Program-made: the position numbers and the translations under genes
Notes under the pieces: model-generated
What the model was told of the DNA's origin: nothing
Database searches by the model: none
Seen by the model: only the letters and a program-made list of their open reading frames with translations
In this document: positions 1-62,046 of the stretch, piece by piece
Layout of the letters: each line of letters starts with the position of its first letter
How positions within the stretch are numbered: the stretch's first letter is position 1
Virus record (IMG/VR): IMGVR_UViG_3300025133_000033
Reading direction: 5' to 3' (one strand)
Source of the DNA: a virus
DNA length: 64,000 nucleotides

Positions 1-324
1 TTTCTTGTACCTTTCCTTAATTGTACTCTGGCTTTCCCCTTTTGGCCTCTCACCCCTAGAAGATTCTGCTTCGGTCATAATGCTGACACCTGTGCTATTT
101 TTCATCATAGTTTTACGAACAAAGAGTCCCTTGTTTTTACCTTTCGGCTTTTCTTTTTCAGTCTCTTCTACCTCCGCCTCGGCCAGACTACGTAGATGCT
201 TCTCAATAGTAGCTTCCTTGCGACCTGTCTCTTCTTCTATTTCTGCGAAGCTATATCCGTCCTCAAACATACCCTCTATCACATACTTCTCTGACTTTCC
301 TAGTCTACCTTTTGCTGTCATCAT
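1..324 (-). CDS. Partial hypothetical protein with possible N-terminal HTH (runs off window)
   Basis: Manual translation MMTAKGRLGKSEKYVIEGMFEDGYSFAEIEEETGRKEATIEKHL; start overlaps the stop of the upstream ORF. Confidence 0.6.
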   Translation of the reverse strand, partial: MMTAKGRLGKSEKYVIEGMFEDGYSFAEIEEETGRKEATIEKHLRSLAEAEVEETEKEKPKGKNKGLFVRKTMMKNSTGVSIMTEAESSRGERPKGESQSTIKERYKK

Positions 325-731
325 ACTTCCCTTTCTGCGTTGTTAAGCCATGCTGCATTTCTACTACGGAGAAACTTGATATAGTAGGTAAAAACCTTTT
401 GGGTCGCTTCTTTAAACTCCCATGCTGGCTTACCCGCATGACGGTGTTGTTTACGTTGAGTCCCCTCGCTGTATAGTCCGATGGGATTAAATAGCTTTCC
501 GTACTTTCCTCTTTTCACATAATAGCGAATTCGAGTTCCTGTATCTACCCTTATTGCATAGGCATCAGGAAGGGCGAAGATATCTGTCCCTTCGTCAAGG
601 GCATTTATATCAACCATAGGATATTCTTCAGCATTTAAATAGTCTTCTGTGCCTTTAAATGTGAATACTTCTGTGGCCTGATCCCTGACTGTATCATTAG
701 CATCATCATTTTTGATTTGAAAATAACTCAT
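321..731 (-). CDS. Hypothetical phage protein
   Basis: 136 aa ORF, translationally coupled on both sides. Confidence 0.75.
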   Translation of the reverse strand: MSYFQIKNDDANDTVRDQATEVFTFKGTEDYLNAEEYPMVDINALDEGTDIFALPDAYAIRVDTGTRIRYYVKRGKYGKLFNPIGLYSEGTQRKQHRHAGKPAWEFKEATQKVFTYYIKFLRSRNAAWLNNAEREV

Positions 732-1129
732 TTCTTTTTCTTTCTCTTCTTTATAGCCTGTTTCTTAGTAATAGGAGAAGGCATACTGCCGTCCTCGGTC
801 ATTCGGGTCATACCAGTAGGCAATTCTTCCATCCCTCCGCTGCGATTTTCCCTTTTATCAAACTTATTAAAGTCCTGGCTCATTTCTTCGCATTTATCTT
901 TGCCGTATTTTTTAGTTTGTTTGTCCGCATATTCACCAAGTGTCGCACACTCGTGGAGACCCTTGATATAATTAGTGACCATAGTATCCGAAGAGTAATC
1001 CCTATAGACCTTACTACTAGAACACTCAGGGCACTCAGCATCATTAAGCTTCTTTTCATAGTCGTTAAAGCTCCATAATTCGCTCCAGGGTTGATCGCAA
1101 TCCTCGCATCTTAAACTATACTCAGGCAT
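728..1129 (-). CDS. FmdB-family zinc-ribbon protein
   Basis: MPEYSLRCEDC...CPECSS pattern; start reassigned to MPEY. Confidence 0.75.
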   Translation of the reverse strand: MPEYSLRCEDCDQPWSELWSFNDYEKKLNDAECPECSSSKVYRDYSSDTMVTNYIKGLHECATLGEYADKQTKKYGKDKCEEMSQDFNKFDKRENRSGGMEELPTGMTRMTEDGSMPSPITKKQAIKKRKKKK

Positions 1130-1772
1130 TTTTTGCTCCTTTAGCAAGGATATCTGCCGCACGAGCCATTACATCCCATCGAGCATCCTTGCAATACATT
1201 AGCTGGAAATCAATAGCAGAGCTAACAGGCTTCTCTTCTTTTGGTTCTGTCCAAGACTTGGTATTCCCAACCATTGTTATTTCTTCTGTAAAGTCATCAT
1301 CAACAGGAAAGATTAGATGCCTACGGTAAGGGCCTCTGCGACCTAATTCATGAATCTCTTCCCTGTCTAAGTCTTTACATACACCAATTGAGCTTCCATG
1401 CATATGAGCTATTTCCGAAGAGTTACTTAATATTTCTTTTCGTGTTTCTTCGTCTATTTGATCGACACTCCAGTTTTTAATGTCCTCCATAGCCTCTGGA
1501 GATATATATAAATCGGAAAGATTACCTTTATCCCAGTAGTAAGAAGGATTTGCTTTCTGCTTTTTCATGACCTCTTTCATTCTTTTAGTGAAACCTTCTC
1601 CATAATCGAATTCCACTAGATTTTCGTCTACCCCTAATGATGCAGGCTCGACCCCCTTTGTGTGGTCTACTAGGTCTTTAGCTTGTCCCGAACGGGAAAG
1701 AGGGCTCGCTCCAACAGCAGCCGCCAAGCCTATAGCACACGTTCTAAAGAAGCTTCTTCTGTTTATATTCAT
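1122..1772 (-). CDS. Tat-signal protein containing capsid-like and tail-tube-like segments
   Basis: NRRSFF, hydrophobic stretch and GQA cleavage site; DLYISPEAMEDIKNW, REEIHELGRRGPY and DARWDVMARA resemble recalled structural-protein motifs. Confidence 0.65.
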   Translation of the reverse strand: MNINRRSFFRTCAIGLAAAVGASPLSRSGQAKDLVDHTKGVEPASLGVDENLVEFDYGEGFTKRMKEVMKKQKANPSYYWDKGNLSDLYISPEAMEDIKNWSVDQIDEETRKEILSNSSEIAHMHGSSIGVCKDLDREEIHELGRRGPYRRHLIFPVDDDFTEEITMVGNTKSWTEPKEEKPVSSAIDFQLMYCKDARWDVMARAADILAKGAKNA

Positions 1773-1974
1773 TTACTACATCCTCGTAAGAAATTCTTGC
1801 TCGTCCTCTTTTAGTTTTCATAACTTTTAGAAAACGCTTTCGTTGCCATTCAATAAAGTATAGCACAGATTCAGTCAATTCGTGGCCATCCAGAAAATAA
1901 TGTTCTGCCAGAATGGGGTCATCAATTAGGTTGTCTGTAAAATGACGGAGAACATCATCTATTTCAATAGCCAT
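1744..1974 (-). CDS. Hypothetical protein
   Basis: 76 aa ORF within the operon. Confidence 0.6.
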   Translation of the reverse strand: MAIEIDDVLRHFTDNLIDDPILAEHYFLDGHELTESVLYFIEWQRKRFLKVMKTKRGRARISYEDVVNEYKQKKLL

Positions 1975-2559
1975 TTAGATAGTAGCCTTTGCTAGTTCTT
2001 TAGGAGGGATAGGAGACCATTGTAAACAGCATAATTTTAGATCAGAGATGGTGCATCTCCTATAGGTATTCCCTCCTTCACTGTTTATTCCACCGTCTTT
2101 TATTATCATAATCAGCTCATACTTCTCACCATAAGGAGTGGCAGGATGGTCTTCCAGAAGATCATATATAGGCTTTCCGTCACGTCGAAGAATATGATAA
2201 GGTTCATCTCGATTATGGAAGGACTTTTGAGCAGGAGACTCGTCCCATCTCATATTTTGATCTCCTAGTGCCTGTAATGTCATGATCGTGACAATACCCT
2301 TGTACTCTATCTCTATCTCAACATCAATTGTACGAAAACGGTCAGGGTTTTCATATAAAGCTATTTGACCAAGCTCAAAGACTTGCTCTAGATCATAAGA
2401 GATAGTAATATTCACGCTTTTAATATTATCTGATGAGATATATTTGGGACCACGACCCTTGACTAGAGGCTCTGCTTTAGCAGCCTTCTCGCCTAAAAAA
2501 GGCAACGCCCCCAGAAAAGGAAGCGTTGCCATAGACTTAAGTAGATTTCTTCTCTTCAT
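1975..2559 (-). CDS. Tat-signal protein with tail-tube-like segment
   Basis: KRRNLLK, h-region and AKA site; SVNITISYDLEQVFELGQIALYEN motif. Confidence 0.65.
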   Translation of the reverse strand: MKRRNLLKSMATLPFLGALPFLGEKAAKAEPLVKGRGPKYISSDNIKSVNITISYDLEQVFELGQIALYENPDRFRTIDVEIEIEYKGIVTIMTLQALGDQNMRWDESPAQKSFHNRDEPYHILRRDGKPIYDLLEDHPATPYGEKYELIMIIKDGGINSEGGNTYRRCTISDLKLCCLQWSPIPPKELAKATI

Positions 2560-13773: not shown

Positions 13774-14243
13774 TCTTTTATGTTCCTAAAATCAAAAACT
13801 TGTGAGGGGTCAACTGCCAGCTTCTTTTTACCTTTCTCTGTACCACGAAGCTCCATTAGTCGTATCGCTACCTTCTCCATAAATTGCAATCTATGAATAT
13901 CTTCCTGTGCCCATACACTGAGAGCCTGATATACAAACTCTGCTATCTCTCCAGTCTCTATTCGAAGACAAGTACGAGCCAGTAGATCAGCAGATGTTTC
14001 GGAAGCATCCTCTACCGCTGCTGAGACATATAGCTGCCCATCCTTACAGCTATACTCAATACCTATCTTGCCATCGCACTCCTCGTCTTCTCCCATACGA
14101 GCATTATGACAATCAGTACATCGTGCTGAGGTTCCAGCCCAGTAGACAGGGTCGCAGGACTTACCACAGTCGGCACAATCTACGGAGGCAGGGGGCTTGG
14201 CATTATAATCAAAGATTAGTGATACTAACTTTCGCAAAACCAT
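13770..14243 (-). CDS. Hypothetical zinc-binding protein
   Basis: CADC...CTDC. Confidence 0.6.
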   Translation of the reverse strand: MVLRKLVSLIFDYNAKPPASVDCADCGKSCDPVYWAGTSARCTDCHNARMGEDEECDGKIGIEYSCKDGQLYVSAAVEDASETSADLLARTCLRIETGEIAEFVYQALSVWAQEDIHRLQFMEKVAIRLMELRGTEKGKKKLAVDPSQVFDFRNIKE

Positions 14244-15060
14244 CTTGATCCTTTCCGCTTAAAAATGTCCCAATCTTACGTGCCACCCCTAATCGAAACT
14301 CTTGAGGTACTGAGCTATCGCTATAGTCGGTTGTTATATAAGAGCCATTAGCATAGGCGTTGGCTCCTGGGGTAGGTTCTCCCAAAGGTCTCGTAATGAT
14401 TGTGCCTTTTCGCAACACCTGAACCTTACCGCCCTTCATAACATCTGAGGCAAGAGGGTAGTGAGAATTGGTTAAATCAATGTTTACTACATCGTTTAGA
14501 AGAATACCTGCAACAGGCTCGTCTCCTTGTTGTAGTCTAACGCATTCTACTGGGCACTCAGGATGACTTATCCCATCGTAGGTTACTACAGAGCCTTTCT
14601 CTGCCACCTGATCCATAAAAAAGGATGAGTCCACCTCTCGAATATCTCTCTGTGCCCTTAAGCCTTTCGCCGTACCAGTGTCCCATAGATCAAGAGTTCC
14701 CGAAAGAGGAGAAACTCCATAGTTGTGGGTCGTCATAGGAGAGGGGCTGTCAGGACTATGTATCTCATGGATACAATCATCAAGGCTTTCATAATACTCA
14801 ATTTTAAAATCTTCGCCAAGAGGAAGAAGATTTCCCGACCCACCGTTTATGACCTTATTCTCTAGCCACTTTGGCCACTCTGTTCTAACTCCGTTAACGG
14901 AAGTTGTTTCGTCTGGAAACGTAGTCTTAGTATAGGTGACTGCGGCATCCTTTTCAATCGTCGCCTGCTCTATCGCTTCTACTTTTTTTACTAAAGGTGC
15001 TGCTGCTAGAGCACCAATGCCAAGTCCTAATTTTTTAAAAAAATCTCTGCGTCCTGTCAT
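14209..15060 (-). CDS. Tat-signal protein fused to a head-decoration-like domain
   Basis: GRRDFFKK, h-region and VEA site; C-terminal half has SFFMDQVAEKG, GILLNDVVNIDLT, KGGKVQVLRKG, GTFLSGKDQDGFAKV. Confidence 0.7.
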   Translation of the reverse strand: MTGRRDFFKKLGLGIGALAAAPLVKKVEAIEQATIEKDAAVTYTKTTFPDETTSVNGVRTEWPKWLENKVINGGSGNLLPLGEDFKIEYYESLDDCIHEIHSPDSPSPMTTHNYGVSPLSGTLDLWDTGTAKGLRAQRDIREVDSSFFMDQVAEKGSVVTYDGISHPECPVECVRLQQGDEPVAGILLNDVVNIDLTNSHYPLASDVMKGGKVQVLRKGTIITRPLGEPTPGANAYANGSYITTDYSDSSVPQEFRLGVARKIGTFLSGKDQDGFAKVSITNL

Positions 15061-19713: not shown

Positions 19714-20232
19714 TTATAGTGACCGCCTCACCGCTTCACAAAACCCTATAACTTCTTCGTCAGAAAATTTATTTCGTGCTAGATTAAACATCACAGAGAC
19801 AAATCTAACATTGCCCTTTACGTATCCCCTTCCATTGTCGATACGGTCAAGCGATGCATGTTCTGGCCTAAGAGCTTCAGTCTTATAAGACTGATGGTTT
19901 CTGAGGATTAAATTCCACCCAGTAAAAGGACAACTTCCTGCCTGATCTTCCCAAAGACACTTCAAGTATTTTGCATCAAGGTCAAAACTTTTATTTCTTT
20001 GTTTGCATAGCTTGATGTAATATCTGAAGTTTGAAAATTCGTCACGTCTATTTTCTGGTATTAAGTTGTCAGAGTTATTGTGTTGTTTAAGATGATCGCA
20101 GTGCTTCGATCCCGAACACTTGAGGCTACAAAAAAAGGCCGTTCTGCCCCTCTTACGCTGACGGACAATCTCGGCCTTTCTTTTTTCGCATTTTTGACCA
20201 CAGTGATCGCAAACAATTTCAATATATTTCAT
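19714..20232 (-). CDS. HNH-type homing endonuclease with N-terminal zinc finger
   Basis: CDHC..FCSLKC; CPFTG...ASLDRIDNGRGYVKGNVRFVS..N; lies right after tmRNA. Confidence 0.8.
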   Translation of the reverse strand: MKYIEIVCDHCGQKCEKRKAEIVRQRKRGRTAFFCSLKCSGSKHCDHLKQHNNSDNLIPENRRDEFSNFRYYIKLCKQRNKSFDLDAKYLKCLWEDQAGSCPFTGWNLILRNHQSYKTEALRPEHASLDRIDNGRGYVKGNVRFVSVMFNLARNKFSDEEVIGFCEAVRRSL

Positions 20233-61803: not shown

Positions 61804-62046
61804 CTACTTCAAGGCACTCTCCATGTCTCTTTTCACCTTTTCTCCACAAGCCTTAATATCATCCATCTCGGTCTTAAGACCAGCGACCTCTTTCTCCACT
61901 TCCTTCATTCCAGCCTTAAAACTAGGCAGAACTTTACCGGCGTTACGGGCCAGTTTAGGAAGGGCACTTGCTCCGAACAGCAGAACCACAATTCCACCTA
62001 TGATCAAGAGTTCAGTTACTCCAGGCATAGCGAATGCAAACATCAC
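61804..62046 (-). CDS. tatA: Twin-arginine translocase subunit TatA
   Basis: PGVTELLIIGGIVVLLFG..LPKLAR..GK....FK.GM. Confidence 0.9.
   Translation of the reverse strand: MMFAFAMPGVTELLIIGGIVVLLFGASALPKLARNAGKVLPSFKAGMKEVEKEVAGLKTEMDDIKACGEKVKRDMESALK

What the first reader, a model, noticed from the sequence alone, without database searches (positions are those of the whole stretch)
1122..1772. One Tat protein looks like a mosaic of capsid and tail-tube segments
Seen: after the signal come short blocks GFTKRMKEVMKK, GNLSDLYISPEAMEDIKNWSVDQIDEETRKEI, DLDREEIHELGRRGPYRR..FPV and AIDFQLMYCKDARWDVMARAADIL, separated by linker-like sequence. From recall, blocks 1, 2 and 4 match conserved major capsid segments (apparently out of native order) and block 3 matches a tail-tube segment. 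At 216 aa it is too short for an HK97 fold. Inference: a concatenated epitope decoy.
Basis: partly seen in the sequence, partly recalled or inferred. Interest (0 to 1): 0.85.

Follow-up and report, generated by a model that had tools for sequence, protein, structure and literature searches.

The report
Export-tagged capsid/tail-tube patchwork protein
A large marine phage encodes a small protein with a Tat (folded-protein export) signal whose body is stitched, out of native order, from conserved pieces of the phage's own major capsid and tail-tube proteins; it belongs to a large undescribed family, and its function is untested.

Summary
ORF 1122-1772 (-) encodes 216 aa. It has a twin-arginine signal followed by four modules. 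Residues 48-116 match major capsid protein (MCP) profile positions 179-232. Residues 117-158 match tail-tube protein (TTP) positions 219-257. Residues 155-186 match TTP 136-162, and 183-216 match MCP 111-140. Scores are 26-56 bits against at most 3.6 for shuffles, and both parents are out of native order. The same mapping holds against the phage's own MCP and TTP, recovered from sister contigs. The capsid parent is an HK97-type MCP. The tube parent is a duplicated-domain tube of the T5 pb6/P74-26 kind. AlphaFold gives no confident fold. At least 62 diverse Tat-signal proteins in metagenomes reuse the same modules in other orders. The same phage also carries Tat-tagged copies of its MCP (full length), its decoration protein and a tube piece, plus its own tatA. 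A relative, G004, has the same set, while 9-11 other phages of the lineage have neither. The 'decoy' function is untested; the best guess is an exported virion-segment mimic. No precedent was found in the literature. The scan has noted similar Tat-led capsid fragments on other DNA (e1-5740632, e1-5344612; not checked here).

The parts
1122..1772 (-). Gene for the 216-aa Tat-signal mosaic protein (P0001)
   Evidence: ORF and translation. SD GAGGA at 1785-1781 and overlaps with both neighbouring ORFs. The DNA is 100% identical in four other metagenome contigs.
1680..1772 (-). Twin-arginine signal peptide, residues 1-31 (NRRSFFR, h-region CAIGLAAAVGASPL, c-region SRSGQA)
   Evidence: TIGR01409 gives 14.8 bits, just under the 16.7 cut-off; homologue P0002 gives 21.5 bits. 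This is the only hydrophobic stretch of the protein.
1425..1631 (-). Module M2, residues 48-116: copy of MCP A-domain start (MCP profile 179-232; own MCP 152-231)
   Evidence: 56.4 bits against the MCP profile. 53% id, E 6e-21 to P0013. E 4e-16 to own MCP P0222.
1299..1424 (-). Module T2, residues 117-158: copy of the first strand plus hairpin of TTP domain 2 (TTP profile 219-257; own TTP 231-266)
   Evidence: 38.6 bits against TTP and -1.5 against MCP. 43% id, E 1e-9 to own TTP.
1251..1310 (-). Module T1, residues 155-174: copy of the TTP domain-1 hairpin (TTP profile 136-162; own TTP 138-157). It joins T2 at a shared FPV tripeptide.
   Evidence: 31.1 bits. 55% id, E 2e-6 to own TTP. P0002 keeps a longer version of both pieces.
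1137..1226 (-). Module M1, residues 183-212: copy of the MCP spine-helix region (MCP profile 111-140; own MCP 108-134)
   Evidence: 25.9 bits. 52% id, E 1e-7 to own MCP.
1975..2559 (-). Neighbouring 194-aa Tat-signal protein carrying a TTP N-terminal module, in the same operon
   Evidence: Residues 46-102 match own TTP 29-85, 37% id, E 2e-9. TTP profile 33-82.
1744..1974 (-). 76-aa ORF between the two Tat genes, overlapping P0001's start; no homologues outside this phage
14209..15060 (-). 283-aa Tat-signal protein whose C-terminal 147 aa is a full copy of the head decoration protein
   Evidence: Residues 134-280 match own decoration protein 3-148, 38% id, E 2e-20. It hits the small genes directly upstream of MCP genes in about 100 loci. 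TIGR01409 15.8 bits. Weak Phage_cement match.
61804..62046 (-). Phage-encoded TatA/E
   Evidence: PF02416 E 4e-14, 52 bits, above cut-off. TIGR01411 56 bits against a 53.9 cut-off.

Best explanation
P0001 is a real accessory gene of a ~150-175 kb marine tailed phage. Its product is a hydrophilic, probably loosely structured protein. A twin-arginine signal directs it to the Tat pathway, which the phage's own TatA probably supplements. I infer that it is exported across the inner membrane during the early/middle, replication-gene phase of infection. Its body is a string of short modules, each a diverged copy of one of the most conserved segments of the phage lineage's MCP or tail-tube protein. 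These are the MCP A-domain helices, the MCP spine helix and two tube hairpins. The proposed mechanism is inferred and not shown. Outside the cytoplasm, these modules would act as competitive mimics of the corresponding virion segments. They would occupy whatever envelope-located factor binds those segments, either a host gatekeeper or a component of a superinfecting related phage. Shown: gene, signal, module origins and order, family, and linkage with tatA and the other Tat-tagged virion copies. Inferred: export, timing, mimicry and target.
For: Module origin and scrambling. Parents identified. The MCP family profile hits PDB 6wkk 'Gp27 major capsid protein' at E 6.7e-16 and phrog_2522. The TTP model (pLDDT 71, pTM 0.77) matches T5 and P74-26 tail tubes at E 1e-9 to 1e-7. 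The two parent genes lie 3-9 kb apart in more than 35 IMG/VR phage loci. Constraint on modules: P0001 and P0002 are collinear at 46% id, with about 70-84% identity in modules and about 20% in linkers. In about 55 Tat proteins the 28-aa core keeps the canonical invariant residues (S, D, W, D, T at 0.93-1.00), with a sharp fall-off at both edges. Family: 62 Tat-signal representatives, 29 with two or more modules, 17 mixing MCP and TTP, 13 out of native order. System: Tat-tagged full MCP (P0215), decoration protein, tube piece and tatA are all in one phage. Relative G004 has tatA, a Tat-MCP and a mosaic at the syntenic HNH / Zn-finger / [mosaic] / Zn-ribbon locus. TatA is absent from 11 other large records of the lineage, and the 8 of these checked for extra copies (G001-G003, G005-G009) have a single MCP; a ninth, G010, has only a signal-less MCP-like remnant. 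The mature part has pI 5.0, GRAVY -0.75 and no hydrophobic segment, which is compatible with Tat export. The gene sits in an overlapping-ORF operon among HNH, RNR, RecA and DnaB genes. The candidate late motif TGGTGTA is found before the structural genes but not upstream of it.
Against: Export, expression and binding were not tested. P0001's own signal scores just under the TIGR01409 cut-off. The AF2 model is not confident, and the Tat pathway normally prefers folded cargo. MCP spine-helix pieces, and in one family member a terminase Walker-B piece, have no obvious business in the periplasm. In G004 the mosaic and the Tat-decoration copy are each split between reading frames, so the genes can decay. 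The tatA co-occurrence rests on one clade, because the window phage and G004 share 88% MCP identity. Family ascertainment started from P0001 itself.
Confidence: 0.4

Rival explanations
1. Cytoplasmic trigger decoy with Tat disposal. The modules copy the conserved segments of late proteins that host abortive-infection sensors recognise. The protein is made before the real virion proteins. It binds such sensors, and the Tat signal sequesters the complex at the membrane or carries it out ('hitchhiker' co-export).
For: The modules are the most conserved parts of MCP and TTP. One family member carries a terminase Walker-B segment, and terminase is not a virion surface protein. The gene has an early/middle genomic position. 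From established knowledge: MCP triggers CapRel and Lit, tail tube triggers DSR2, terminase and portal trigger Avs, and Tat can co-export signal-less partners.
Against: There is no precedent for Tat-based removal of an immune protein. No sensor is known for the unknown host. A trigger mimic might activate rather than blunt a sensor. The terminase piece is a single case at E 7e-7.
Confidence: 0.2
2. Non-functional debris. The ORF is a rearranged, decaying remnant of once-complete Tat-tagged paralogues of MCP and TTP. Illegitimate recombination at microhomologies such as FPV joined the pieces. It is kept only because it sits inside an operon.
For: No confident fold. The T2/T1 junction lies at a shared FPV, and P0002 keeps longer flanks. 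The G004 homologues are frameshifted. G010 carries a signal-less, collinear, degenerate MCP remnant. Module content differs even between relatives.
Against: The ORF is intact, with an SD and translational coupling. Dozens of deeply diverged members all keep the Tat signal plus modules that retain the parents' invariant residues, while linkers have diverged beyond recognition. The modules are more canonical than the same segments of the full-length Tat-MCP copy (against 82).
Confidence: 0.15
3. Assembly or lysis device. The Tat signal tethers virion-like fragments to the membrane or translocon. This would nucleate or poison assembly, or overload Tat together with extra TatA and so depolarise the membrane as a lysis timer.
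For: The phage supplies only TatA, the pore-forming or membrane-weakening subunit. Several cargo genes exist.
Against: The gene lies far from the structural and lysis modules. Nothing requires virion-derived sequence for Tat overload. There is no evidence of binding to MCP or TTP.
Confidence: 0.05

Closest known systems
HK97-fold major capsid proteins (this lineage's ~335-aa MCP; Phage G gp27, PDB 6wkk)
   Same: Two modules (residues 48-116 and 183-212) are clear homologues of the A-domain start and the spine-helix region, and they keep the family's invariant residues.
   Different: Only about 100 of 335 positions are present. Their order is reversed, they are interrupted by tube sequence, they follow an export signal, and the gene lies outside the head module. 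It is not a capsid protein.
Duplicated-domain tail tube proteins (T5 pb6, P74-26 TTP)
   Same: Modules 117-158 and 155-174 copy a domain-2 strand-hairpin and a domain-1 hairpin of the phage's own 381-aa tube protein.
   Different: About 60 of 354 positions are present, in reversed order. It cannot form a tube domain.
Dedicated Tat component encoded beside its cargo (Bacillus subtilis TatAd/TatCd with PhoD)
   Same: Cargo genes with twin-arginine signals travel with an extra Tat subunit gene.
   Different: Here the carrier is a phage, only TatA is supplied, and the cargos are copies or fragments of virion proteins rather than an enzyme.
Envelope-located superinfection-exclusion proteins of lytic phages (T4 Imm/Sp, T5 Llp)
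   Same: They are phage-encoded, non-structural, expressed before the late genes and act outside the cytoplasm.
   Different: They use Sec or lipoprotein signals and show no similarity to virion proteins or any mosaic build.
Phage structural proteins as triggers of bacterial immunity, and phage blockers of such sensing (CapRel-MCP, Lit-Gol peptide, DSR2-tail tube/DSAD1, Avs-terminase)
   Same: The same protein classes (MCP, tube, perhaps terminase) supply the modules, and the Gol peptide shows that a short linear capsid segment can be recognised.
   Different: Known sensors and blockers are cytoplasmic. No known blocker is a fragment mosaic or carries an export signal.

Membership tests
Tat (twin-arginine) substrates | N-terminal S/T-R-R-x-F-L-K-like motif followed by a moderately hydrophobic h-region and an Ala-ended c-region | tested here: met
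   NRRSFFR, then a 14-aa Gly/Ala-rich h-region, then SRSGQA. It is the only hydrophobic window of the protein.
Tat (twin-arginine) substrates | Score at or above the curated cut-off of TIGR01409 (16.7 bits) | tested here: inconclusive
   P0001 scores 14.8 bits, just below the cut-off. Collinear homologue P0002 scores 21.5 bits, above it.
Tat (twin-arginine) substrates | Tat-dependent translocation of the protein | not testable with these tools
   Needs an export assay. Indirect support only: phage tatA in the same genome and in relative G004.
HK97-fold major capsid protein | Collinear full-length match to an MCP family | tested here: not met
   Only MCP profile positions 179-232 and 111-140 are present, in reversed order.
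HK97-fold major capsid protein | Predicted HK97 fold | tested here: inconclusive
   AF2 gives pLDDT 45.5 and pTM 0.21, with local helices only, from a shallow 8-row alignment.
HK97-fold major capsid protein | Gene in the head module next to the decoration, scaffold and portal genes | tested here: not met
   The gene lies among HNH, RNR, RecA and DnaB genes. The real MCP, P0222, sits after the decoration gene in L185.
Tail tube protein (pb6-like) | Complete tube beta-sandwich domain, collinear with the family | tested here: not met
   Two pieces, TTP 219-257 and then 136-162, in reversed order.
Superinfection-exclusion / decoy proteins | Demonstrated block of a second infection, or binding to a host or phage factor | not testable with these tools
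   The host is unknown and there is no assay.

The most novel reading that the evidence does not exclude
Phages of this lineage run a Tat-based counter-defence. Early in infection they make export-tagged strings of the conserved 'trigger' segments of their late proteins (capsid, tube, decoration, perhaps terminase). These capture host sensors or periplasmic gatekeepers that recognise those segments. A phage-supplied TatA then helps expel or sequester them. This would be a natural 'string-of-beads' decoy with disposal built in.
Probability: 0.12. Interest if true: 0.95.

Novelty: categorically new. Interest (0 to 1): 0.8.

Why it matters
If the family is functional, it is a previously undescribed way for viruses to reuse their own structural proteins. 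Short conserved segments are cut out, reshuffled, fused to a folded-protein export signal and sent out of the cytoplasm with a virus-encoded translocase subunit. That would point to an unknown envelope-level, or export-coupled, layer of phage-host or phage-phage conflict in the ocean. It would also mark which capsid and tube segments something else recognises. Even without a function, the family is a clear natural case of protein evolution by module shuffling between unrelated folds. It is also a caution for annotation, because such genes would be mis-called as capsid or tail fragments.

Tried and rejected
- **Family libraries:** Pfam, PHROGs and NCBIfam give no family for P0001 beyond the Tat signal.
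- **Reference phages:** tblastn against 50,697 deposited phage records found no match.
- **IMG/VR scans:** the scan with P0001 alone returned nothing. The 8-row alignment A3 had no usable pattern. The scan with A4 returned only canonical MCPs.
- **Paralogues in the window:** none, and no canonical MCP or TTP there.
- **Whole genome:** not held for this window.
- **AF2 of P0001:** not confident, so no fold search was run on it.
- **Complex prediction:** P0001 (32-216) with own MCP and own TTP gave no verdict, score 0.00. This is not evidence either way.
- **ESM Atlas look-alikes:** scores of at most 0.80, uninformative.
- **Selection test:** impossible, because all four other contigs are 100% identical in the gene.
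- **Recent gene conversion from own genes:** rejected. G004's mosaic modules are not closest to G004's own TTP, and P0001's modules are only 43-55% identical to its own proteins.
- **Block 3 as a collinear continuation of MCP:** rejected, -1.5 bits against 38.6 bits.
- **P0067 match to an ERCC4 nuclease:** judged spurious, because it overlaps the better MCP spine-helix assignment.
- **Literature:** five full-text searches found no description of Tat-tagged virion-protein copies or mosaics. One hit describes a host periplasmic defence against phage DNA entry, which is context only.

Full report
**The gene**

Window 1122-1772 on the minus strand is an intact 216-codon ORF. It has a GAGGA Shine-Dalgarno 8 nt before the ATG. 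It overlaps the stop of the upstream 76-aa ORF and the start of the downstream zinc-ribbon ORF. It therefore sits in a tightly coupled operon: HNH endonuclease, an 80-aa zinc-finger ORF, a Tat-signal tube-fragment gene, the 76-aa ORF, P0001, then the zinc-ribbon gene. All 64 kb of the window is coded on this strand. Sister contigs that are 100% identical in DNA show ribonucleotide reductase upstream and RecA, DnaB and primase downstream. The gene thus lies in the replication/nucleotide module of a large marine phage. The longest contig carrying it is 175,725 bp.

**The signal**

Residues 1-31 read as a twin-arginine signal: NRRSFFR, a Gly/Ala-rich h-region and SRSGQA. TIGR01409 gives 14.8 bits, just under the 16.7 cut-off. 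The collinear homologue P0002 gives 21.5 bits. The rest of the protein is acidic (pI 5.0) and hydrophilic (GRAVY -0.75), with no second hydrophobic stretch.

**The parents**

P0001 has no Pfam or PHROG family. Two exhaustive protein searches found two sets of full-length relatives.

- **Capsid parent.** A ~335-aa family matches P0001 in two places. A profile of it hits the solved Phage G 'Gp27 major capsid protein' (PDB 6wkk) at E 6.7e-16 and phrog_2522, major head protein. Its gene follows a decoration/cement gene. It is an HK97-type MCP.
- **Tube parent.** A 340-440-aa family has an internal repeat and no family or PDB sequence match. Its AlphaFold model (pLDDT 71, pTM 0.77) matches the T5 tail proteins, an Acinetobacter phage major tail protein and the P74-26 tail tube at Foldseek E 1e-9 to 1e-7. 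Single-domain tubes and Hcp follow at about 1e-4. It is a duplicated-domain tail tube protein (TTP).

In more than 35 IMG/VR loci the MCP gene lies 3-9 kb upstream of the TTP gene on the same strand. Both parents therefore belong to one phage lineage.

**The mosaic**

I scored each piece of P0001 separately against the two profiles.

| P0001 residues | Parent and profile positions | Bits |
|---|---|---|
| 48-116 | MCP 179-232 | 56.4 |
| 117-158 | TTP 219-257 | 38.6 (MCP: -1.5) |
| 155-186 | TTP 136-162 | 31.1 |
| 183-216 | MCP 111-140 | 25.9 |

Three hundred shuffles of each piece never exceed 3.6 bits. The order is M2-T2-T1-M1, so both parents are represented by two pieces in reversed order. 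T2 and T1 meet at a shared FPV tripeptide. The longer homologue P0002 keeps more of both flanks.

I then recovered the phage's own virion genes. The MCP of relative G004 was used as bait. It found P0222, a 332-aa MCP whose longest contig is the same 175,725 bp and which occurs in the same samples. Its contigs carry, in order, the large terminase gene, a 718-aa and a 516-aa gene with no family match (by position probably portal and scaffold), the decoration gene, the MCP gene and, further downstream, a 381-aa TTP gene. The layout matches the scan's notes on the earlier windows.

| P0001 residues | Own protein and residues | Identity and E-value |
|---|---|---|
| 45-116 | MCP 152-231 | E 4e-16 |
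| 183-209 | MCP 108-134 | 52%, E 1e-7 |
| 123-168 | TTP 231-276 | 43%, E 1e-9 |
| 155-174 | TTP 138-157 | 55%, E 2e-6 |

**Fold**

AlphaFold on an 8-row alignment gives pLDDT 45.5 and pTM 0.21. It shows only local helices, in the MCP-derived modules. No HK97 fold is predicted, but a shallow alignment makes this weak evidence.

**A family, not a one-off**

Among the hits under 300 aa, 62 representatives of 50%-identity clusters start with a twin-arginine signal and carry at least one MCP or TTP module. Of these, 29 carry two or more modules, 17 mix both parents and 13 have a parent's modules out of native order. Example architectures:

- MCP 293-331 | MCP 199-247 | TTP 216-279
- TTP 5-53 | MCP 202-263 | TTP 229-264
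- MCP 312-334 | MCP 32-65 | MCP 101-147

P0067 has the P0001 capsid modules in native order.

The 28-aa core around SPEA-EDIRNW keeps the MCP family's invariant residues in about 55 of these proteins. Conservation falls away sharply on both sides. P0001 and P0002 are about 70-84% identical inside modules and about 20% in linkers. One member, P0159, carries a piece of the terminase Walker-B region (37% id, E 7e-7; the same region is hit in 13 terminases). The census started from P0001, so module frequencies are biased towards its own modules.

**A system in this phage**

- The neighbour at 1975-2559 is a Tat signal plus a TTP N-terminal module.
- The ORF at 14209-15060 is a Tat signal, a linker and a complete copy of the decoration protein (E 2e-20 to the phage's own).
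- About 1.5 kb beyond the window start lies P0215, a Tat signal plus a full-length but diverged MCP (30% id, E 3e-49).
- The ORF at 61804-62046 encodes TatA (PF02416 E 4e-14; TIGR01411 above cut-off).

The 130,845-bp relative G004 shares 88% MCP identity. It has tatA, a Tat-tagged MCP copy and a differently composed mosaic (TTP N-terminus, TTP 220-279, MCP 125-157) at the syntenic locus. It also has a second decoration copy behind a Tat-like signal.

TatA was not found in 11 other large records of the lineage. The eight of these checked for extra MCP copies (G001-G003, G005-G009) have only one MCP. A ninth, G010, shows no full-length MCP in its 84%-complete record but carries a signal-less degenerate MCP remnant. 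The co-occurrence is clean but comes from one clade.

In G004 both the mosaic and the decoration copy are split between reading frames. These genes are therefore dispensable at least sometimes.

Other mosaics (P0077, P0067) also sit beside RecA/DnaB or other replication genes.

The candidate late motif TGGTGTA is enriched in the structural module (8 matches against 1.5 expected). It precedes the 718-aa (probably portal), Gp77-like and tube genes. It does not precede the Tat genes.

**Interpretation**

The descriptive claim is secure (about 0.9): this is a Tat-signal protein made of reshuffled capsid and tube modules, and it is part of a phage set of Tat-tagged virion copies. That it is exported is likely (about 0.7), given canonical signals across the family and a phage tatA.

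What it does is unknown. I favour an exported mimic of conserved virion segments acting at the envelope (0.4). The next option is a cytoplasmic trigger decoy coupled to Tat disposal (0.2). After that comes decaying debris of Tat-tagged paralogues (0.15), then an assembly or lysis device (0.05).

**Comparison with what is known**

Five full-text literature searches found no description of such genes. The scan's own notes list similar Tat-led capsid/tube mosaics in another genome (e1-5740632). They also list a Tat-led copy of a P22-type spine helix (e1-5344612). I did not check either note. If they are right, the theme recurs in unrelated capsid lineages.

**Limits**

- There is no expression, export or binding data, and the host is unknown.
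- The assignment of P0222/L185 as the phage's 'own' virion genes is by shared contig length, shared samples and layout, not by a contiguous sequence in hand.
- The complex prediction gave no verdict and carries no weight.

Noticed in passing
window 61804-62046 (-): The phage encodes a TatA/E subunit, above the curated cut-offs of PF02416 and TIGR01411. No TatC was seen. The only other TatA among 12 large records of the lineage is in relative G004.
   Followed up: yes
window 14209-15060 (-): Tat signal, a ~110-aa linker and a complete copy of the head decoration protein (38% id, E 2e-20 to the phage's own 151-aa decoration protein). It sits among metabolic genes.
   Followed up: yes
window 1975-2559 (-): A 194-aa Tat-signal protein with a duplicated LPFLG in the signal. 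Residues 46-102 copy the tail tube N-terminal strand-hairpin; the remaining ~90 aa match nothing.
   Followed up: partly
L001:5071-6207 (+), about 1.5 kb beyond the window's start: A 378-aa protein with a Tat signal, a ~60-aa linker and a full-length but diverged copy of the MCP (30% id to the canonical MCP). It follows recA.
   Followed up: partly
P0159 residues 120-162 (metagenome protein): A Tat-signal family member carries a segment like the terminase large-subunit Walker-B region (37% id, E 7e-7; the same region is hit in 13 terminases). Non-virion late proteins may therefore also be sampled.
   Followed up: partly
G004 (IMG/VR record, 130,845 bp): L183 8073-8324 (-) and L190, record positions 125590-126095 (-): In this relative the mosaic and the Tat-decoration copy each have the signal in one frame and the body in another. 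This could be a frameshift, decay or recoding. The Tat-MCP copy is intact.
   Followed up: partly
L182 3260-3910 (-) (G010): A 216-aa ORF without a Tat signal that keeps three collinear, degenerate MCP segments (148-185, 257-288, 318-335). It is a different kind of MCP remnant in another phage of the lineage.
   Followed up: no
L185 (structural module) and window: TGGTGTA is enriched in the head-tail module (8 against 1.5 expected, 0 of 200 shuffles reach 8). It lies just upstream of the 718-aa (probably portal), Gp77-like and tube genes. In the window there are 14 against 7 expected, nearly all on the coding strand, for example 25 bp before the ORF at 19714-20232. It is a candidate late promoter element.
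   Followed up: partly
L001 7822-10326 (outside window): The DnaB helicase gene carries LAGLIDADG homing-endonuclease signatures, suggesting an intein.
   Followed up: no
window 728-1162 (-) and 321-731 (-): A zinc-ribbon (Zn_ribbon_8) ORF and a 136-aa ORF follow the mosaic gene here and in G004. A Zn_ribbon_8 gene also lies beside the unrelated mosaic P0076 (L007), so the neighbourhood is conserved.
   Followed up: no
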